Positions 940 through 25,469 of a DNA stretch of 64,000 nt are shown one piece after another. How positions within the stretch are numbered: the stretch's first letter is position 1; each line of letters starts with the position of its first letter. Under the pieces are notes generated by a model that saw only the letters and a program-made list of their open reading frames with translations, did no database searches and was not told the origin of the DNA. Source of the stretch: a virus (Duplodnaviria > Caudoviricetes). The translations under genes were made by a program, and so were the position numbers. The stretch spans positions 1 to 64,000 of the IMG/VR virus record IMGVR_UViG_3300011113_000265. The stretch is one strand, 5' to 3'.

Positions 940-1439
940 TATATCAAATTGTTTAATGTGTAATTAATTGCCGCTTCGTATGATTCCGTTGGTGACTGAT
1001 AATTTTCTTTTTCAATTAAAGCAAAACGTTCATTTATCATAGAGTTGTAAGTTGTCTTATAATTTAACCATTTTTCATTTGGGTCATCTTCATATTCAAC
1101 ACCTTCTTCACCAAGTTCATCATCTTTTCTTGGTAAAATAGTTGAAAATATATCCCAATCAAACCAAATACCTGTATGGTCTTTACCCATTGTGAGTTCA
1201 ATCCAAATCCCACGATTCTTATACAACCACATTACTACTTCTGAGATGGTTGGTGCTGATGTATAGTGGTTCTTAACACTATTCCAATTGATAGGATTAT
1301 AATTGATTAAACCATCCACTTGTCTTTGTTTATCAAAAGGTGTAGATAATCTTTCATAATCATAAAAGTTAATCACTTTTAAATTAAATCCTTTTTCTTT
1401 TAATAATTTAGCTATTTCAAAACTTACTGGTGTGTTCAT
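939..1439 (-). CDS. Hypothetical phage protein, paralog of 336..743
   Basis: VSFEIAKLLKEKGF ... APTISEVVMWL ... YEAAINYTL. Confidence 0.75.
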   Translation of the reverse strand: MNTPVSFEIAKLLKEKGFNLKVINFYDYERLSTPFDKQRQVDGLINYNPINWNSVKNHYTSAPTISEVVMWLYKNRGIWIELTMGKDHTGIWFDWDIFSTILPRKDDELGEEGVEYEDDPNEKWLNYKTTYNSMINERFALIEKENYQSPTESYEAAINYTLNNLI

Positions 1440-2493: not shown

Positions 2494-2982
2494 TCAAACA
2501 TAATACAATGTTTTAGGTTTTTGTTCTTTCCAAAGTTGGAGGAGTTCCCAATATTGATAATATCTATTTTCTTCTTTACAGACATTATTTTCTATACAGA
2601 ATTTACCAAAGTTTTTCATATCTTCCTCACTAAAAGGATGTGTTTCTTGGGATTTGTTGTAGCCTAAAAAGAAACTTCTCCTATGATAAGGTGTAAAATT
2701 TGGTAATTCTTTATTTAAAATTTCATCAACTTTTATTTCAACCTCATCCACCACTTTAGGAATATCAATGTTTGGGTTAGTGGTTGCTATTGGTTTAGGT
2801 TGTGGAGATTTACACCATTCTTCTGTTAATAAAGATGAATTATAGATAAGTTCATTACCCATAATAAACAACTCATCTTCATTAATTATTCGATCACTTA
2901 TATAATAATCAAATCCATCAATAGTGACTTTATCACAAAGATGTTCTTCTTTTGTTTTGTTGTTTATTAATTTGTATTTCAT
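2494..2982 (-). CDS. Hypothetical protein
   Basis: 162 aa; FSEEDM module shared with the adjacent genes. Confidence 0.75.
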   Translation of the reverse strand: MKYKLINNKTKEEHLCDKVTIDGFDYYISDRIINEDELFIMGNELIYNSSLLTEEWCKSPQPKPIATTNPNIDIPKVVDEVEIKVDEILNKELPNFTPYHRRSFFLGYNKSQETHPFSEEDMKNFGKFCIENNVCKEENRYYQYWELLQLWKEQKPKTLYYV

Positions 2983-3755
2983 AGTTTATTTCTTTTTAAA
3001 TTGTTTAAACCATTTCTTAACATCAAAACCCAATTTAATGGAGATGTATTTCTTACAGCACTTCTATAATCAGATTGCTGTTTTAGTAATATTTTTAATA
3101 CTTCTTCCTCACTATACATTCTTTCTTGTTGCCATTTAGCACCAAATAAAACTCCCTCTCTCCATAGAGTATCATTAACCTCATCGTGATACCCATTTCT
3201 ACGCATTGCTTCTTCAAGTGTTTCTTGTTTAGGTTCTTCTTTCTTACCAATACCAATAGCTGCAATATTTCTTGCAATCTCTAATTTTGTCGATGTTTTA
3301 GGTTCTTCTTTTGGAATGATTATTTTGTAACCTACTTCACATAAATATTGTTTATCATAAGCACCTTTGCTTGGACAATTATCACCATGTTTACAAAAAG
3401 ATTCAACTTCAACCTCCTCACAACTTGGATTCTTTACAAACCATTCTAAAAACTCATCATCAATAGCTTGTACGCCATCTTTGATTAAGTCTGGGTCTGT
3501 TGTTAGGATTATTTTTTTATAAAAACTTAAAGTGTAACCATCATATTTAGAATTATCTTGTTTAAATATTTTATTATTTGAAATATTTAATACCCAATCT
3601 CCTTCTTTAATTTCTTCATCAGAAGTGATGTAGATGTGTTGATTTTCCCAATGAGAACCACTTGTAATTGATTTAGATAATATCAAATTACCCTTTGGTA
3701 TTGTTTTAAGTAATCTGGATGGGTTTTGTGTTGGTAGTATGTGTATGTTTTTCAT
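2979..3755 (-). CDS. Hypothetical modular protein
   Basis: 258 aa; EEPK repeats, CxxxxxC...C segment, YSEEEV module. Confidence 0.75.
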   Translation of the reverse strand: MKNIHILPTQNPSRLLKTIPKGNLILSKSITSGSHWENQHIYITSDEEIKEGDWVLNISNNKIFKQDNSKYDGYTLSFYKKIILTTDPDLIKDGVQAIDDEFLEWFVKNPSCEEVEVESFCKHGDNCPSKGAYDKQYLCEVGYKIIIPKEEPKTSTKLEIARNIAAIGIGKKEEPKQETLEEAMRRNGYHDEVNDTLWREGVLFGAKWQQERMYSEEEVLKILLKQQSDYRSAVRNTSPLNWVLMLRNGLNNLKRNKL

Positions 3756-4327
3756 TGTTTGAGTGTTAGTTTACCGTTAATAATATCTACTTCCCATTCG
3801 GTTTTTTGTAAGTGTTTTGTGATTCTTAAAAGATGTTCTTTTTTGTCGTTATGTGAGTAACATTTAAACCAGTTTTGTGATACGTTGTCAACGATATTAA
3901 TAACATCTTCCTCTGTATATTTCTTATCCTTGTTATCTTCAAGGGCTTGGGTGTAGCCTTTGAGAAATGAATGATATGCATCATATAATTCAGGATGAGC
4001 AATATCTTCATTATTATGTTGTTCATCTAAATGATTCTTCGCTCTCTTCTCCACATCCACCTTGCCAAGTAGTTCTTTGATTTCGGATAAAGGTAGTTCA
4101 ATTATTTTATGATAAACAAAGGGAATAGTACCATCTTTTGCTGCATAATATTGCTCAATTGGTTGTGTTGAGTGAGTGATTTTTATTTTATATCCTCCAG
4201 TAACATGATTATTACTACCAGTTCTTATTTCTTTTTGTTTATCATCCCAATAATAATCTGTTTCAGAGAAATCTAAGGAATTATCTACAACAATATAGTG
4301 GTCTGTGTTAATTTTTATTAGTTTCAT
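3752..4327 (-). CDS. Hypothetical protein
   Basis: 191 aa; YTEEDV module; ATGA overlap. Confidence 0.75.
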   Translation of the reverse strand: MKLIKINTDHYIVVDNSLDFSETDYYWDDKQKEIRTGSNNHVTGGYKIKITHSTQPIEQYYAAKDGTIPFVYHKIIELPLSEIKELLGKVDVEKRAKNHLDEQHNNEDIAHPELYDAYHSFLKGYTQALEDNKDKKYTEEDVINIVDNVSQNWFKCYSHNDKKEHLLRITKHLQKTEWEVDIINGKLTLKQ

Positions 4328-4328
4328 A

Positions 4329-5183
4329 TTAAAATATATATCTTATTGTGTTCCATGGTATTATTTTATTGTGTAATTCAATCCATTGATTAATAAATTC
4401 AGCTTTTAATTTATGGTTGTATCTAATATTTTCTCCACCATATTGAGATATTTTAAATTCTTGTATTTCTGGTTTCCATAATAAATGCTCACCTGATAAT
4501 TTATTATTTAAATTATAATGATGTTTACTTGCATTATGAGTAAGAAATATTACTTCACATTTAACTATATCTTTGTAATCTACATAAGTATTAACATAAT
4601 CAAATAAATCTTCATAATCTTGTAACCAATTATTATATACAACTACAGGACTAAAGTTAATATGTACATCATAACCTGCATCAATAAATGCATCAATAGC
4701 TTTGATTCTATCAATTATTTTAGAAGTATTAGGTTCTAACTCATCTGATATGTTTTGAGGCATTAAACTAAATCTAATACGTATTTTACCTTCAGGATTA
4801 AATTTAGTTAAATTAGGATTTACGTATTTAGTAGCTAAACTACCCATTGCTATTGGATGTTCTTTAAAGAATTGAAATATTCTTTCCCATTCATGATATT
4901 TAGCATGTAATGCAAAGTCTTCATTACAAGATAAATCATATGTTACATATTGATGATGAGTTTGATTAGGTTTATCTACACTAGCAAACCATGCATGATT
5001 ATTAATTTCTGTTAATATATCATTAGTATTTTTAGATATAGATAATCCAGTATGGTTATGTCTTTTCATATAACAGTAAGAACAATTATATAAACAGCCA
5101 TAACCAAAACTTGGACTAATAAAATCAGTAGACCTACCACTAGGTCTTATTAACATAGATTTCCTATTTATTTTCTTGATCAT
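4329..5183 (-). CDS. Radical-SAM protein, spore photoproduct lyase (SplB)-like
   Basis: GCLYNCSYCY gives the CxxxCxxC motif. ATKYVN, RIRFSLMP and EPNTS..DRI resemble SplB-family motifs. Confidence 0.8.
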   Translation of the reverse strand: MIKKINRKSMLIRPSGRSTDFISPSFGYGCLYNCSYCYMKRHNHTGLSISKNTNDILTEINNHAWFASVDKPNQTHHQYVTYDLSCNEDFALHAKYHEWERIFQFFKEHPIAMGSLATKYVNPNLTKFNPEGKIRIRFSLMPQNISDELEPNTSKIIDRIKAIDAFIDAGYDVHINFSPVVVYNNWLQDYEDLFDYVNTYVDYKDIVKCEVIFLTHNASKHHYNLNNKLSGEHLLWKPEIQEFKISQYGGENIRYNHKLKAEFINQWIELHNKIIPWNTIRYIF

Positions 5184-5364
5184 CTTTTACTAATGAACTT
5201 AAAAATATTTTCATTGTTCTACCACCATCTTGCATACTAATTTCTGCAATATCAAAATCACCTAACTCTTTATACAGAGTTAACATTCTACCAACAGAAT
5301 AATCATTTTTAGCATGATTAATTACTTCTATTCTTGTTATTTTGCTATCATCAATTCCTTTCAT
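5164..5364 (-). CDS. Hypothetical protein
   Basis: 66 aa, ITRIEVINH ... SMQDGGRTMKIF; overlaps neighbours. Confidence 0.7.
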   Translation of the reverse strand: MKGIDDSKITRIEVINHAKNDYSVGRMLTLYKELGDFDIAEISMQDGGRTMKIFLSSLVKDDQENK

Positions 5365-5888
5365 TACTTCATATTTTTAAGTTTATAAATATAACTACTA
5401 TCTTCAGCATATTTACCATCAATAGCTTTTAAATATCTATTTTGTATTTTTATATAATGTTCTAAACATTCAGTATAAGTATTATATACTCTATATTTAT
5501 TACCTTTTTTAATACCTAATAAGTTCTTATTAGTTTTAACTAATTTAGATGTATAATTACCTGATTCTAACTTAATTTGAGCTAATGCTACATTAGGTAA
5601 TATACAACCTAATTCTATTAATTTAACAGTAATAGCACTATCATTTAATTCAACATCTTGAACTTCATTAGTTTTAATAGTTTTAAATATTTTATAATCA
5701 TTAGCTGAATTACAAGTAAATACTAATAGAGTTATAACTGTTATTACAAGAAATAATGTAATTGCTGATACAACACTATCGTTATAGGTTTTACATTCAT
5801 TCTTACATTTTTTACAAATGTATTTGTTATCTACTATTTGTTTTACATTTTCATAGCAACAAGCTGATTTTAAAATTGGATTTTTCAT
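5364..5888 (-). CDS. Membrane-anchored glucosaminidase (FlgJ/GH73-like peptidoglycan hydrolase)
   Basis: Cys-rich N-terminus, one TM helix, then AQIKLESG, NLLGIK and YAEDSSY motifs. Confidence 0.7.
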   Translation of the reverse strand: MKNPILKSACCYENVKQIVDNKYICKKCKNECKTYNDSVVSAITLFLVITVITLLVFTCNSANDYKIFKTIKTNEVQDVELNDSAITVKLIELGCILPNVALAQIKLESGNYTSKLVKTNKNLLGIKKGNKYRVYNTYTECLEHYIKIQNRYLKAIDGKYAEDSSYIYKLKNMK

Positions 5889-5915: not shown

Positions 5916-5987
5916 TGTAGTCAGTAAGAGATTCGAACTCTTATTTCCTATCCTACAATAGGATGTTACCAATTACACCAACTGACT
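5916..5987 (-). tRNA. Degenerate tRNA-like element, anticodon not assignable (possibly GTA)
   Basis: Acceptor stem AGTCAGT/ACTGACT; D-arm GTGT-AATTGGTA-ACAT; T-arm AAGAG-TTCGAAT-CTCTT. The anticodon arm CCTAT-TGTAGG-ATAGG has only a 6-nt loop. Confidence 0.6.
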
Positions 5988-5989
5988 AT

Positions 5990-6167
5990 GTTGCTCTTTA
6001 TTCTCCTACCCTTTTATATCAGAGCCAACCTGCTTATCTTTAAATACGAGTTTCTCAAGGGTACAGGTTGTTTGAGAATGAGAAGTCCTCTGTGTTGTTA
6101 GGATAGTGACTATGTGGTTTTAGTATCTACCTACTCCATTATATTCCTTTCTCAAGGGAACAACACA
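5990..6167 (-). ncRNA. Candidate structured RNA with two CCCUUGAGAAA units
   Basis: Stems 6159-6167/6091-6099 and 6063-6070/6026-6033. 11-mer repeated at 6148-6158 and 6051-6061. Two complementary UUCUCA copies at 6072-6084. Confidence 0.5.
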
Positions 6168-6174
6168 TTAATTA

Positions 6175-6200
6175 AGAGAGTAGTATTTCTACTACTCTCT
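6175..6200 (-). terminator. Hairpin (terminator or processing site) after 6210..6809
   Basis: Perfect 11-bp stem AGAGAGTAGTA/TACTACTCTCT, GAAA loop on the minus strand, weak U-tract. Confidence 0.6.
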
Positions 6201-6209
6201 ATTAATTGA

Positions 6210-6809
6210 TTAAGCTAAAGACTCTAATACAGCTTTAGTACTAGCTGCTACAGTAGCAGTAGGTACAGATACTTTAGTTTCAACTCTCATATCTACATCA
6301 CCAAATGCATTAGCATTAGCAGATTCTTTATGATTAGTATAATCATTTACAAAGAATCCAGTAGAATACTGAACAGGTTGAACTACATTACCAGCACTGT
6401 CTTTAATTACATGCTTATCTTGCAACTGTTCTTTAGTTACAATACCAGCACTTAGAGCATACTTTTGCTCATCTGTTAATACATCAACAAGTTTATTGCT
6501 GTATTTCTTGCAGATTCTAGCTTTAGGTTTAGTAGCAAGCATTGCTTCTACTTGTTCTTTAGTTACACCATTTGGAACTAATACCCATGCCATACGAGTA
6601 CTCTTGTACTCAGTTCCTTCGATATTAAATGCTTCAATATCAAATAAACTATCAGACATACTATTTTCTACTTTCTTACCTGGATAAGTAGTAATAATTG
6701 TTTGTCTAATTTGAGCTTGTTTAAATTCAGGCCCTTTTAATGAATCTACAATACCATCTACAGTAATTGCGTTAAATTCTTTGCTGATTCCATTTACAGT
6801 TGTTTTCAT
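6210..6809 (-). CDS. Hypothetical protein, probably highly expressed
   Basis: 199 aa with a low-complexity Ala/Thr/Val tail, followed by a hairpin. Confidence 0.8.
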   Translation of the reverse strand: MKTTVNGISKEFNAITVDGIVDSLKGPEFKQAQIRQTIITTYPGKKVENSMSDSLFDIEAFNIEGTEYKSTRMAWVLVPNGVTKEQVEAMLATKPKARICKKYSNKLVDVLTDEQKYALSAGIVTKEQLQDKHVIKDSAGNVVQPVQYSTGFFVNDYTNHKESANANAFGDVDMRVETKVSVPTATVAASTKAVLESLA

Positions 6810-24268: not shown

Positions 24269-24838
24269 ATGGCTTTACAATTAAATATAAATATAACTGA
24301 ATATATTAATCAAGAATGGTTAACTTTTAAAGAGTTAACTGGTCTATACTCTTTAGCTAATACAACTGGTTGGGGTACTCCTAATCCAGCTACTGGTTCA
24401 GCTACTGCAGCAACTTTAGAAATGCAAGATATTAATGGTAACAGTTTAGGAATAGTTGATGTTTTTACTTACTTTCCTACCTCTGATACTAATTTTGAGT
24501 TAAATATACTAGCAAGTGATTTTAATGGTAACACAACTAAGTTTAATGATGGTGTATATCAATTTATTTATAGAGTAGTTACTCCAACTGGTAACTATGA
24601 AAAACGTATTTGGATAGTATTTAAATGTGCTGCTGAGTGTAAAATGCAAAACTTATTATTAAAGCTTGTACAAGACTTTTGTGATACTTGTGAAGATGAT
24701 GGTAGTGTATTAAAATATACTCAAGCTAGAATGATTTTAGATGCTGCTGAGAGTGCTGCTCAATGTGGAGATATTATTAGAGCTAATGCTTTAATGGATA
24801 TGTTCAATAGATTAAAGATTGAATATTGCTGCGATTAA
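24269..24838 (+). CDS. Tail structural protein with Cys-rich C-terminus
   Basis: DGVYQFIY beta domain followed by CAAEC, CDTC and YCCD. Confidence 0.55.
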   Translation: MALQLNINITEYINQEWLTFKELTGLYSLANTTGWGTPNPATGSATAATLEMQDINGNSLGIVDVFTYFPTSDTNFELNILASDFNGNTTKFNDGVYQFIYRVVTPTGNYEKRIWIVFKCAAECKMQNLLLKLVQDFCDTCEDDGSVLKYTQARMILDAAESAAQCGDIIRANALMDMFNRLKIEYCCD

Positions 24839-24839
24839 T

Positions 24840-25469
24840 ATGGAAAAAGAAAATAAATATTACTTATATAGACATATAAGATTAGATAAAAACGAGCCTT
24901 TTTATATAGGAATTGGTACTAAGGAATATAAAAATCCTAAAACACATGAACTTGAATATAGAAGAGCATTTAGAAAATATAATAGAAGTAAACATTGGAC
25001 TAACATTATAAAATTAACAGCTTATAAAGTAGAAATTTTATTTGAATCTAATGATTATAATATTATAAAAAATAAAGAAATAGAATTTATAAAACTTTAT
25101 GGTAGGAAGGATCTTGACTTAGGTACTTTAGTAAATTTTACAGATGGTGGAGATGGTTTTCATAAGATTATAACAGCGGAACAAAAAGTAAGAATATCTA
25201 AAAGTTTAAAAGAATACTATAGTAAAAATACAGTATCACAAGAAACTAGAAAAAAATTAAGTAACTTACATAAAAATAATGTAGGAAGTTCTAAAACAAG
25301 ATTTAAAAAAGGCGATAAACCTAAAAGCAGTAAAAAAATATTAGATTTAAATACAAATATAGAATATCAATCTATTTCTGAATATTGTAGAATTTTTAAT
25401 ATACCAATGACTAGTTTTTGCAGAAATATAAATAAATATAACATTTTAATATTAGAAAATAATGTGTAA
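24840..25469 (+). mobile_element. Free-standing GIY-YIG homing endonuclease with NUMOD-type repeats
   Basis: YYLYRH ... PFYIGIG, EIEFI, NFTDGGDG, SQETRKKLS, RFKKG. Likely ATG at 24840 (track ORF from 24819). Confidence 0.8.

What the first reader, a model, noticed from the sequence alone, without database searches (positions are those of the whole stretch)
5990..6167. Two-unit structured RNA leading into the tRNA-like element
Seen on the minus strand: unit 1 is stem UGUGUUGUU/AACAACACA enclosing CCCUUGAGAAA, followed by GAGGACUUCUCA. Unit 2 is stem CAACCUGU/GCAGGUUG enclosing the same CCCUUGAGAAA. The linker has two tandem UUCUCA, one complement per UGAGAA, and a downstream AAGGGUA complements UACCCUU. 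The element fills the gap between a hairpin and the tRNA-like 5' end. Inference: tandem pseudoknots acting as a ribozyme, riboswitch-like RNA or processing signal. Theta ribozymes are known next to phage tRNAs, but on the 3' side, whereas this element lies 5'.
Basis: partly seen in the sequence, partly recalled or inferred. Interest (0 to 1): 0.7.

Follow-up and report, generated by a model that had tools for sequence, protein, structure and literature searches.

The report
Two conserved pseudoknot RNAs before phage tRNA
The flagged stretch holds two separate, tightly folded small RNAs that recur, almost letter for letter, in hundreds of uncultured phage genomes next to tRNA genes and match no catalogued RNA family; one of them shares its core with an abundant RNA of unknown function made by a cultured crAss-like phage.

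Summary
It is not one two-unit RNA. It is two independent modules in a ~97-kb crAss-like phage.

Module A (6168..6072, minus) has helix P1 (GUGUUG/CAACAC). Inside P1 are hairpin P2 (UUCC/GGAA, loop CUUGAGAAA) and a variable insert. Outside P1 is hairpin P4 (GAGGA/UUCUC), whose loop UUCUCA complements the P2 loop.

Module X (6070..5993) is an H-type pseudoknot, UACCCUU with AAGGGUA.

A scan for X gave 74 loci. Helices show compensatory changes. The loop-loop and pseudoknot pairings rest only on complementarity of near-invariant strands.

No Rfam 15 family matches, and neither module is a theta/HDV-like ribozyme.

Of 114 module A copies, 71 sit just upstream of a tRNA-shaped gene. About a third of core occurrences lie inside a 290-410-nt intergenic RNA instead. 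One such RNA is in Cellulophaga phage phi14:2, in a gap reported as highly and persistently transcribed.

Best reading: autonomous stable RNAs excised from tRNA operon transcripts, function unknown. A ribozyme role is untested.

Earlier notes of this scan describe similar tRNA-adjacent pseudoknot RNAs on other DNA.

The parts
6175..6200 (-). Upstream hairpin: 11-bp stem AGAGAGUAGUA/UACUACUCUCU with a GAAA tetraloop, directly after the stop of ORF 6210..6809. It has no U-tract.
   Evidence: Sequence. The hairpin is conserved in relatives L002 and L003 while the DNA after it differs. It was not called as an intrinsic terminator, and no minus-strand promoter-like site was found nearby.
6072..6168 (-). 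Module A, the whole unit: helix P1, hairpin P2 with loop L2, a variable insert, the return strand of P1, hairpin P4 with loop L4, then AA.
   Evidence: Covariance model R1 scores it 79.4 bits, but the window sequence was in the seed alignment. It is the only copy in the 97-kb genome. Homologs were found. The alignment is A2.
6161..6166 (-). Module A, P1 5' strand GUGUUG. It pairs with CAACAC at 6097..6092.
   Evidence: 99.8% of cells are paired in 80 sequences, with only G-U variation in that set. Compensatory variants GUAUUG/CAAUAC and CUUGUUG/CAACAAG were seen in L219 and L223. In the large-RNA form the flanking pair covaries: U:A 46, C:G 9, 1 mismatch, of 56.
6144..6160 (-). Module A, P2 hairpin: UUCC (6160..6157) / GGAA (6147..6144) with the 9-nt loop L2 CUUGAGAAA (6156..6148).
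   Evidence: 3 of 4 P2 pairs show changes on both sides, for example UUUC/GAAA and UUCA/UGAA. Phage phi14:2 has UCAC/GUGG.
6098..6143 (-). Module A, variable insert (an imperfect hairpin, 'P3').
   Evidence: Its length is 25-48 nt in A2 and longer elsewhere. Predicted stability is not significant: mean z = -0.48. Recurrent GAGUG...CACUA ends were seen.
6092..6097 (-). Module A, P1 3' strand CAACAC, followed by the unpaired A6091.
6074..6090 (-). Module A, P4 hairpin outside P1: GAGGA (6090..6086) / UUCUC (6078..6074) with loop L4 CUUCUCA (6085..6079). UUCUCA at 6084..6079 can pair with UGAGAA at 6154..6149 of L2 (a loop-loop 'kissing' contact).
   Evidence: P4 has 2 pairs with changes on both sides (G:C to A:U or U:A; A:U to G:C). 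L2 and L4 can form at least 5 contiguous pairs in 115 of 116 units, against 24% when L4 is shuffled. No compensatory change was found in the loop-loop pairs themselves.
5993..6070 (-). Module X, the whole unit: an H-type pseudoknot with an extra 3' hairpin.
   Evidence: 74 loci and 56 unique variants. The alignment is A3.
6026..6070 (-). Module X, P1: CAACCUG (6070..6064) / CAGGUUG (6032..6026). It encloses UACCCUU (6063..6057), GAGAAACUCG, and a small hairpin UAUU-UAAA-GAUA (6046..6035).
   Evidence: The three outer P1 pairs are paired in 48, 44 and 40 of 50 sequences, with several pair types (A:U, C:G, U:A, G:C). The small hairpin differs in sequence between subgroups (read).
5993..6025 (-). 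Module X, 3' hairpin: GCUCU (6025..6021) / AGAGC (5997..5993). Its loop GAUAUAAAAGGGUAGGAGAAUAA holds AAGGGUA (6013..6007), the partner of UACCCUU.
   Evidence: The stem is kept through many different sequences, including GGAC/GUCC, GUUCC/GGAAC, ACCAC/GUGGU and UCUCGG/CCGAGA. Both pseudoknot strands were fixed by the search pattern, so their invariance is by construction. Three variants lack the hairpin stem but keep the pseudoknot strand.
5988..5992 (-). Linker AACAU between module X and the tRNA-like 5' end.
   Evidence: Linkers of this kind (AA plus 0-5 nt, mostly ending in U) precede tRNA-shaped genes in the homologs.
5917..5987 (-). tRNA-like gene with a non-canonical anticodon arm: CCUAU-UGUAGG-AUAGG, giving a 6-nt loop, or an 8-nt loop if the closing U-A pair is open.
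   Evidence: ARAGORN reports 'tRNA-???' with a 2-base anticodon. Rfam tRNA scores 45.3 bits. It is the only tRNA-type gene in the 97-kb genome.

Best explanation
The stretch encodes two autonomous, compactly folded small RNAs. Each belongs to a widespread, so far uncatalogued family of phage RNA modules that live in tRNA or tRNA-like gene arrays.

Module A is a junction closed by P1 and locked by a loop-loop contact between L2 (UGAGAA) and L4 (UUCUCA). Module X is an H-type pseudoknot (UACCCUU:AAGGGUA).

The modules are transcribed together with the neighbouring ORFs and the tRNA-like gene. They are then set free as RNAs of about 80-100 nt by the enzymes that mature the neighbouring tRNAs: RNase P at the 5' end of the downstream tRNA, and RNase Z or other nucleases elsewhere. 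This is how the species 1 and 2 RNAs of T4 are made.

The conserved fold itself, not the tRNA beside it, is the functional unit. It probably works in trans as a binding platform or decoy for a protein or RNA.

Shown here: the families, the helices, the tRNA context, and the shared core with a larger phage RNA. Inferred: the loop-loop and pseudoknot pairings, the excision, and the action in trans.
For: Family membership and conservation:
- With only the 3' part fixed, 87 of 102 unique hits carry the 5' motif.
- Module X gave 74 loci.

Structure:
- In A2 (80 sequences) 97.2% of cells are paired, 5 pairs change on both sides, and 0 of 500 shuffles reach the observed values.
- The X helices are kept through many sequences.
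- L2 and L4 are complementary in 115 of 116 units, against 24% when shuffled.

Autonomy:
- The order A then X occurs here and in L323/L403. The order X then A occurs in L038.
- Relatives with 86-94% identical neighbour protein lack A at this place. One of them keeps X (L436).
- Of 119 unique 5'-anchored core occurrences, 65 are the small form, 36 lie in a 286-408-nt intergenic RNA, and 18 were unclassified.
- The large form is followed by ORFs, not tRNAs.

tRNA-processing context:
- 71 of 114 A units are followed by a tRNA-shaped frame within 14 nt, 63 of them at 2-4 nt.
- 28 of 116 are preceded by a tRNA 3' end.
- For X the figures are 24 of 44 and 9 of 44.

No minus-strand promoter or canonical terminator was found around the element.

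Expression of the shared core:
- R1 matches phi14:2 at record 3130-3207 with 48.9 bits.
- That lies in the g004-g006 gap.
- Passages of the preprint 10.1101/2020.03.07.982082 say the long intergenic regions there are transcribed above most genes, early and persistently, and call them long non-coding RNAs of unknown function.
Against: - No RNA ends were mapped. Excision by RNase P or RNase Z is inferred from position alone.
- A structured hairpin only 2-5 nt from the cleavage site could hinder RNase P rather than serve it. That point rests on general knowledge and was not tested here.
- The loop-loop contact of A and the pseudoknot of X have no compensatory changes. For X both strands were fixed by the search pattern.
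- Conservation of helices at the sequence level would also fit a catalytic core, recognition by a conserved enzyme, or a DNA-level role.
- RNA-library contigs holding the modules may come from DNA in those libraries, and they show no ends.
- That the phi14:2 RNA of the preprint is the same as the large form is inferred from coordinates.
- A trans-acting target is not known.
Confidence: 0.55

Rival explanations
1. Cis-acting leader or spacer. The modules serve the neighbouring tRNA-like gene within the precursor. They could block exonucleases, keep adjacent near-identical tRNA frames from mispairing, or tune RNase P cleavage or transcription read-through. They would have no life of their own.
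For: - 71 of 114 A units and 24 of 44 X units directly abut a tRNA-shaped 5' end.
- Here the only tRNA-type gene of the genome is the one behind them.
- The downstream frames share nearly the same acceptor and T arms, so misfolding is a plausible risk. That last step is inference.
Against: - 43 of 114 A units are followed by something else.
- The same core sits inside a large RNA followed by ORFs.
- A spacer role does not explain near-invariant loops and helices across hundreds of contigs.
- No cognate complementarity exists between the variable insert and the variable part of the downstream frame: permutation p = 0.34 over 70 pairs.
Confidence: 0.2
2. Self-cleaving ribozyme of a new class that trims tRNA precursors. 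It would act at the 5' side of the following tRNA, or at the 3' side of a preceding one, as theta ribozymes do.
For: - The core is small and highly conserved, with pseudoknot-type tertiary pairing, next to phage tRNAs.
- Theta ribozymes show that phages use ribozymes for tRNA ends (PMC10879173: abstract and sections 7 and 13 read).
- 28 of 116 units lie 4-5 nt after a tRNA 3' end.
Against: - No match to any ribozyme family in Rfam 15, even at E up to 10.
- Few conserved unpaired nucleotides are left once the helices and loop-loop pairs are drawn.
- The distance to the tRNA 5' end varies from 1 to 14 nt, so the ribozyme could not set that end.
- In this window nothing tRNA-like lies upstream.
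- The core also occurs away from tRNAs.
Confidence: 0.1
3. Self-assembling RNA. The complementary loops UGAGAA and UUCUCA pair between molecules rather than within one, so that the modules, and above all the large form, build oligomers as reported for GOLLD, ROOL and OLE.
For: - The loop complementarity is conserved but cannot be assigned to cis or trans from sequence.
- The abstract of PMC12286853 (search listing only) reports homo-oligomeric complexes for large phage-associated RNAs.
- High expression is reported for the phi14:2 region.
Against: - No match to the GOLLD, ROOL or OLE models.
- The small form has both loops a short distance apart across one helix, which favours pairing in cis. 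That is inference.
- Nothing was tested.
Confidence: 0.07
4. DNA-level or selfish element. The conserved sequence is kept as a target or landing site of homing endonucleases or recombinases that shuffle tRNA-array cassettes. Alternatively the units are decaying tRNA remnants.
For: - Cassette-like presence and absence between close relatives.
- HNH-type endonuclease ORFs, recognised by eye, lie directly behind truncated large forms in L026 and L046.
- A homing endonuclease sits in the T4 tRNA cluster (PMC2330249, listing only).
Against: - Compensatory base changes in P2, P4 and P1 of the large form, and in the X helices, show selection on RNA pairing.
- ARAGORN and the Rfam tRNA model do not call either unit.
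- Transcription is reported for the phi14:2 region.
Confidence: 0.05

Closest known systems
Long non-coding RNA of Cellulophaga phage phi14:2 (intergenic region after g004; Drobysheva et al., preprint 10.1101/2020.03.07.982082, passages read)
   Same: It holds the same core as module A: P1, P2 with loop CUUGAGAAA, and a downstream UUCUCA. R1 scores it 48.9 bits at record 3130-3207. The phage is crAss-like, as the window's phage is by its terminase, portal and capsid families. The region is reported as strongly transcribed from early on and persistent.
   Different: There the core is a domain of an RNA of about 440 nt (record about 2912-3351) with further conserved parts: GGUUAAACAUUGAA......GUGACCCUAC......GAGGGUGCUAA. 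It has no P4 hairpin and is not followed by a tRNA. The paper describes neither structure nor function. That its RNA equals this element is my inference from coordinates.
Phage T4 species 1 and species 2 RNAs (rnaC, rnaD)
   Same: They are small stable RNAs encoded inside a phage tRNA cluster, directly after a tRNA gene (annotation). Their function is reported as unknown in earlier notes of this scan. That they are cut from the tRNA operon transcript is recalled knowledge.
   Different: No significant similarity: R1 gives 12.7 bits at E 0.35 on rnaD with filters off, and nhmmer gives 7.4 bits at E 2.4. Only a short resemblance exists (GAUGGUUCCCUGAG...AUCACAG against GUGUUGUUCCCUUGAG...CAACACAG). 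In six rnaD homologs the UGAG and the GGAA are not conserved.
Theta ribozymes (minimal HDV-like ribozymes next to phage tRNAs; PMC10879173)
   Same: Small structured RNAs that abut tRNA genes of uncultured phages, mostly phages of Bacteroidota (section 7 read).
   Different: Theta ribozymes lie 3' of the tRNA with the cleavage site within +/-5 nt of its 3' end. They have the HDV-like nested double pseudoknot with a catalytic C in J4/2. The present modules have another architecture, give no HDV-family hit, and here lie 5' of the tRNA-like gene.
GOLLD and ROOL RNAs
   Same: Phage or prophage RNAs of unknown function. That they are often found beside tRNA genes is recalled. The abstract of PMC12286853 was seen in a search listing.
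   Different: They are much larger (500-800 nt, recalled). No match to their Rfam models in the window or in 16 related loci.
Upstream pseudoknot domains before tRNA-like structures of plant RNA viruses, and pseudoknots of tmRNA (recalled, not tested)
   Same: Pseudoknots placed directly before a tRNA-shaped domain.
   Different: Those are parts of one RNA acting in translation or replication of RNA genomes, or in ribosome rescue. No sequence or family relation was found here.

Membership tests
Theta / HDV-like ribozymes | Nested double pseudoknot (P1, P1.1, P2, P3, P4) with a catalytic C at the start of J4/2 | tested here: not met
   The comparative structure is P1 enclosing P2 and an insert, plus an external hairpin P4. 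No HDV-type family appears among the Rfam matches up to E = 10. The motif definition was read.
Theta / HDV-like ribozymes | Cleavage site within +/-5 nt of the 3' end of a tRNA | tested here: not met
   In the window the element follows an ORF and a hairpin and precedes the tRNA-like gene. Only 28 of 116 homologs follow a tRNA 3' end.
Self-cleaving ribozyme classes held in Rfam (hammerhead, twister, twister-sister, pistol, hatchet, hairpin, HDV) | Match to the family covariance model | tested here: not met
   Gathering and E <= 10 searches of the window region. Gathering search of 12 related loci and E <= 1 search of 4 loci. Only tRNA was found.
Self-cleaving ribozyme (any class) | Site-specific self-scission | not testable with these tools
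   This needs in vitro transcription. RNA-library contigs cannot show ends.
tRNA / tRNA remnant (units 1 and 2) | Cloverleaf with a T arm and D arm recognised by tRNA models | tested here: not met
   ARAGORN and Rfam tRNA call only 5917..5987.
Module A family (defined here) | P1 GUGUUG/CAACAC; P2 with a loop of the form NNUGAGANN; external hairpin P4 with a loop holding (U)UCUCA; AA tail | tested here: met
   All parts are present at 6168..6072. R1 scores it 79.4 bits, but the window sequence was one of the 80 seed sequences, so that score is not independent. Independent support: the pattern scans found the same arrangement in other contigs.
Module X family (defined here) | P1 (NN)CCUG/CAGG(NN); UACCCUUGA(R)AAACUCG; small hairpin; 3' hairpin with loop ...AUAAAAGGGUANNAGAAUAA | tested here: met
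   All parts are present at 6070..5993. Aligned with 52 homologs.
T4 rnaD (species 2 RNA) | Similarity to the conserved rnaD core (AAGAAACCGGGUCGCUACCGGUAAGUCGUCGGACUGAUGUUCCCUG ... AUCACAGCAGAAACGGCGCACC) | tested here: not met
   Only the GUUCCCUG and CACAG pieces resemble module A. The CM score is 12.7 bits at E 0.35.
GOLLD / ROOL / other large ornate RNAs in Rfam | Match to the family covariance model | tested here: not met
T-box-like tRNA-sensing leader | A specifier-type pairing between the leader and the cognate tRNA | tested here: not met
   Duplex energies between the variable insert and the variable part of the downstream frame: cognate mean -12.6, non-cognate -12.5 kcal/mol, permutation p = 0.34, 70 pairs.

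The most novel reading that the evidence does not exclude
Module A's near-invariant core is the working heart of a new class of phage RNA. The same core drives the abundant, early and persistent non-coding RNA of crAss-like phages, and it circulates as a mobile cassette through phage tRNA arrays together with aberrant tRNA look-alikes. In this reading it is either a new catalytic RNA or an RNA decoy that neutralises a host RNA-targeting defence or processing enzyme. The arrays of modules plus odd tRNA frames would then be RNA-based counter-defence islands. A distant kinship with T4 species 2 RNA would tie in a 50-year-old orphan RNA.
Probability: 0.15. Interest if true: 0.9.

Novelty: new variant of a known kind. 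Interest (0 to 1): 0.65.

Why it matters
Small stable RNAs inside phage tRNA clusters have been known since T4, and their job is still unknown. This finding adds two families that are very widespread in uncultured phages. They are conserved almost to the letter in their cores and are absent from Rfam 15.

One of them is linked to an abundant RNA of a cultured model crAss-like phage, Cellulophaga phage phi14:2. That link turns an orphan metagenomic motif into something testable at the bench by deletion, end mapping, probing and pull-down. It also gives annotators models that explain 'empty' intergenic DNA and spurious small ORFs in phage genomes.

If the RNAs prove to be catalytic, or to act against host defence or RNA processing, they would be a new layer of phage-host conflict carried by RNA.

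Tried and rejected
- **blastn of the intergenic region against 50,697 phage records:** no match.
- **40-nt core query at E <= 10:** 9 records. Only phi14:2 (two records of one genome) is real. The Pseudoalteromonas HM1 hit lies in coding-looking DNA without the other parts.
- **Synteny:** three relatives found through the upstream protein (86-94% identity) keep the hairpin but not module A.
- **First pattern scan, two CCCTTGAGAA copies:** of 18 loci, 16 are repetitive coding-like DNA and only L017/L022 are homologs.
- **Upstream protein against phi14:2 g004:** not related.
- **T-box-like idea:** no cognate complementarity.
- **Guide-RNA idea:** the variable insert has no meaningful complement in the phage's own 97 kb. 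The best hit is a 14-nt identity in the same sense. The host could not be searched.
- **Prokaryote genomes:** 22 pattern hits, about what chance predicts by my own estimate. Nine score at least 31 bits with R1, and all nine are on MAG contigs of many phyla. No host can be named.
- **Homologs of the odd tRNA:** the D-arm pattern gave 60 loci and 45 unique sequences. None shares its acceptor or anticodon arm, so conservation of the 6/8-nt loop could not be judged.
- **Divergent module A copies, searched with nhmmer over all loci held:** 17 odd hits, none with a compensated L2/L4 change.
- **Variable insert:** no significant predicted stability.
- **RNA libraries:** contigs of four metatranscriptomes hold module X (5992-6069, depth 29, with an adapter-like sequence joined at 5992) and parts of module A (6071-6163). 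These are contigs of relatives. DNA carry-over is possible, and no starts or ends can be read. Parts without cover mean nothing.
- **T4 rnaD kinship:** not significant.
- **Promoter reading of TTGAGA:** the spacing to any conserved -10-like hexamer falls in the variable insert, and no minus-strand site was found.
Full report
**What is there.**

On the minus strand the gap between ORF 6210..6809 and ORF 5364..5888 holds four things in order:
- an 11-bp hairpin with a GAAA loop (6200..6175);
- the flagged element (6168..5993);
- a 5-nt linker;
- a tRNA-like gene (5987..5917).

ARAGORN calls that gene 'tRNA-???' with a two-base anticodon. Rfam scores it as tRNA at 45.3 bits.

The 11-mer CCCTTGAGAAA occurs exactly twice in the 64-kb window, both times here.

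The window is the first 64 kb of a 97,017-base virus record. Its terminase, portal and major head protein match PHROG families 6681, 6547 and 11589, and it has ORFs of about 2,000 residues. It also shares an RNA with Cellulophaga phage phi14:2. I read it as a crAss-like phage. The family names come from the library, and the crAss-like label is my inference.

**Known families.**

Rfam 15 finds nothing but the tRNA. I searched the window at gathering scores and at E <= 10. I also searched 12 related loci at gathering scores and 4 at E <= 1.

For the theta-ribozyme paper I read the abstract, section 7 and section 13. It defines minimal HDV-like ribozymes whose cleavage site lies within +/-5 nt of a tRNA 3' end. 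That is another architecture and another side of the tRNA.

**Homologs.**

Three close relatives were found through the upstream protein (86-94% identity). They keep the hairpin, but the DNA after it differs.

A scan for the two 11-mers at the right distance gave 18 loci. Sixteen are repetitive coding-like DNA. Two (L017, L022) are true homologs with two tandem units followed by a tRNA-like gene.

From these I derived three patterns. One fixes only the 5' part, one fixes both parts, and one fixes only the 3' part. With only the 3' part fixed, 87 of 102 unique hits carry the 5' motif within 125 nt. Altogether 116 unique small-form units were extracted.

**Module A (6168..6072).**

The alignment of 80 units (A2) supports this drawing:
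- P1 is GUGUUG/CAACAC.
- Directly inside P1 is hairpin P2, UUCC/GGAA, with loop CUUGAGAAA.
- Next comes a variable insert of 25-48 nt in A2, longer elsewhere.
- The P1 return strand follows, then one A.
- Outside P1 is hairpin P4, GAGGA/UYCUC, with loop (C)UUCUCA(A), then AA.

Counting pairs:
- 97.2% of cells are paired, against 39-55% when the partner columns are slid.
- 5 pairs show changes on both sides: 3 in P2 and 2 in P4.
- 0 of 500 shuffles reach the observed values for four of the five measures, and 1 of 500 for the fifth.

P1 hardly varies in this set. Compensated variants do exist: GUAUUG/CAAUAC in L219 and CUUGUUG/CAACAAG in L223. In the large form the pair flanking P1 is U:A in 46, C:G in 9 and mismatched in 1 of 56.

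The loops L2 and L4 can form at least 5 contiguous pairs in 115 of 116 units, against 24% when L4 is shuffled. There is no compensated change, only G-U. The loop-loop contact is therefore an inference from two near-invariant complementary loops.

The variable insert has no significant predicted stability: mean z = -0.48.

Model R1 finds a single copy in the whole 97-kb genome and none in the three relatives.

**Module X (6070..5993).**

L038 showed the same sequence as 'unit 2' upstream of a module A, which is the opposite order.

A scan fixing CTGTACCCTTGA and AAGGGTA gave 74 loci and 56 unique variants. I dropped 2 of them as chance hits without the other features. One further variant fell at the coordinate filter and is not in the alignment.

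The family has these parts:
- P1, (NN)CCUG/CAGG(NN). Its outer pairs are kept in 48, 44 and 40 of 50 sequences through several pair types.
- The strand UACCCUUGA(R)AAACUCG.
- A small hairpin whose sequence differs between subgroups.
- A 3' hairpin whose stem is kept through many different sequences.
- In that hairpin's loop, AAGGGUA, the complement of UACCCUU.

Three variants lack the hairpin stem but keep the strand, which makes a plain H-type pseudoknot.

Both pseudoknot strands were part of the search pattern. Their invariance proves nothing.

The UGAGAA of unit 2 is G in 14 and A in 39 of 53 sequences. It is not a conserved partner of any UUCUCA.

One relative of the window's phage (the contig of L003) carries X but not A (L436).

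**Context.**

For module A:
- Of 114 units with enough downstream DNA, 71 are followed within 14 nt by a tRNA-shaped frame (7-bp acceptor plus T arm).
- 63 of these frames start at 2-4 nt. 39 of the 71 frames are longer than 95 nt.
- The other 43 units are followed by other recurrent structured sequences, by module X, or by another A.
- Of 116 units, 28 follow a tRNA 3' end, mostly by 4-5 nt, and 5 follow another A.

For module X:
- 24 of 44 are followed by such a frame.
- 9 of 44 are preceded by a tRNA end.
- 3 are preceded by A and 1 is followed by A.

No minus-strand promoter-like site or canonical terminator lies around the element. This fits co-transcription with the flanking genes.

**The large form.**

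Of 119 unique 5'-anchored core occurrences, 65 are the small form and 36 lie in a larger RNA. My rule left 18 unclassified. By eye most of these are one form or the other, and one is coding.

The large RNA runs from GGUUAAACAUUGAA... to ...GAGGGUGCUAA. It is 286-408 nt long where both ends were in the fetched DNA. It is intergenic and followed by ORFs. It has a covarying GNRA hairpin just before P1.

It is present in the cultured Cellulophaga phage phi14:2 at about record 2912-3351. R1 scores it 48.9 bits, and P2 there is UCAC/GUGG.

In RefSeq this lies in the ORF-free gap between g004 (2194-2904) and g006 (4602-4901). Small ORFs once annotated there were removed in June 2020.

Passages of the preprint by Drobysheva et al. 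state several things about the g004-g005 and g005-g006 intergenic regions:
[quoted passage not shown] - Unlike other early transcripts, they do not decline.
- They are called long non-coding RNAs of unknown function.

ARAGORN finds a tmRNA gene at 4031-4500 in the second region. That the first RNA is the large form is my inference from coordinates.

**Mechanism.**

The comparative data show two autonomous RNA folds under strong selection. They shuffle within tRNA arrays and are gained and lost between close relatives. They sit where tRNA-processing enzymes would cut them free.

I therefore favour excised, stable, trans-acting RNAs (0.55 for the whole statement). Their existence as conserved structured families I hold at about 0.9.

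The rivals are:
- a cis-acting leader or spacer (0.2);
- a new self-cleaving ribozyme (0.1);
- self-assembly through the complementary loops (0.07);
- a DNA-level or remnant reading (0.05).

Tests that came out negative are listed under Tried and rejected. The main ones:
- no cognate pairing between the insert and the downstream frame;
- no target of the insert in the phage genome;
- no significant relation to T4 rnaD.

RNA-library contigs from four studies hold the modules. They cannot show transcription or ends.

**Novelty.**

- Rfam 15 holds no matching family.
- My literature searches turned up no description of these motifs.
- The catalogue paper PMC10690425 was searched only for three terms. 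It may list them among 10,006 unnamed candidates, and I did not see its supplements.
- Earlier notes of this scan describe other pseudoknotted RNAs next to phage tRNA or tmRNA genes, and tRNA frames with swappable inserts. A look-up by sequence found none for this stretch.

I class the finding as a new variant of a known kind: small structured RNAs of phage tRNA clusters.

Noticed in passing
window 5917..5987 (-): The only tRNA-type gene of the 97-kb genome has a non-canonical anticodon arm, CCUAU-UGUAGG-AUAGG. That gives a 6-nt loop, or 8 nt if the closing U-A is open. It keeps U-GUA-G, so it looks like a Tyr-type anticodon in a loop of the wrong size. It may be a decoy or mimic rather than a decoding tRNA.
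   Followed up: partly
L017 1307..1393 and ~1030..1150 (-), L049, L086 and many loci: The genes behind the modules form a family of tRNA-shaped frames. They share nearly the same acceptor stem (AGUCAGG/CCUGACU) and T arm but have very different, often over-long middles: 39 of 71 are longer than 95 nt, and some have 8-9-nt 'anticodon' loops. ARAGORN misses many of them.
   Followed up: partly
L268 1283..1722 = KC821624 / NC_021806 about 2912..3351 (+): This is a large (~440-nt) conserved intergenic RNA of Cellulophaga phage phi14:2 that contains the module A core. Relatives of 286-408 nt occur in many viral contigs. It has no Rfam match. Old small ORFs gp007-gp009 once annotated on the opposite strand have since been removed from RefSeq.
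   Followed up: partly
L467 (NC_021806) 4031..4500 (+): ARAGORN calls a phage-encoded tmRNA (tag GSSVQKLAMVA) in the second highly transcribed intergenic region of phi14:2. It is not annotated in the record's feature table as shown.
   Followed up: no
L026, L046, L034: These are truncated large-form RNAs, ending soon after the core with a hairpin. They are directly followed by ORFs starting MEQWKDVPNYENLYQISN... or MENWKDIPNYEGLYQISD..., which look like HNH/NUMOD4-type homing endonucleases (recognised by eye, not searched).
   Followed up: no
L270, L287, L293, L327, L356 (after module A); L269/L333; upstream flanks listed: Further recurrent structured-looking modules sit in the same arrays. 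One runs CUAUUAGUGAACUUCGGUACCCAUACCGCUGACGAUGGGCUAAG...CUGAUAG. Another runs ...AAGAUUGGAGCGAGACGGGUACUCCAUCACUAUCAACAAUAUU directly before module A. The arrays are mosaics of several RNA families.
   Followed up: no
L550 3054..3172 (-), T4 rnaD: T4 species 2 RNA contains GAUGGUUCCCUGAGUAAGGAAU ... CAUCACAG, which resembles module A's GUGUUGUUCCCUUGAGAAAGGAAU ... CAACACAG. The scores are not significant, and the UGAG/GGAA part is not conserved among six rnaD homologs.
   Followed up: partly
window 24819..25466 (+): An ORF inside the structural gene block matches a homing-endonuclease PHROG (phrog_314, E 8.5e-15).
   Followed up: no
L037: A module X-like start (CCUGUACCCUUGAAUG...) lies inside the terminal variable hairpin of a large-form RNA. 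This suggests that the modules can nest within one another.
   Followed up: no
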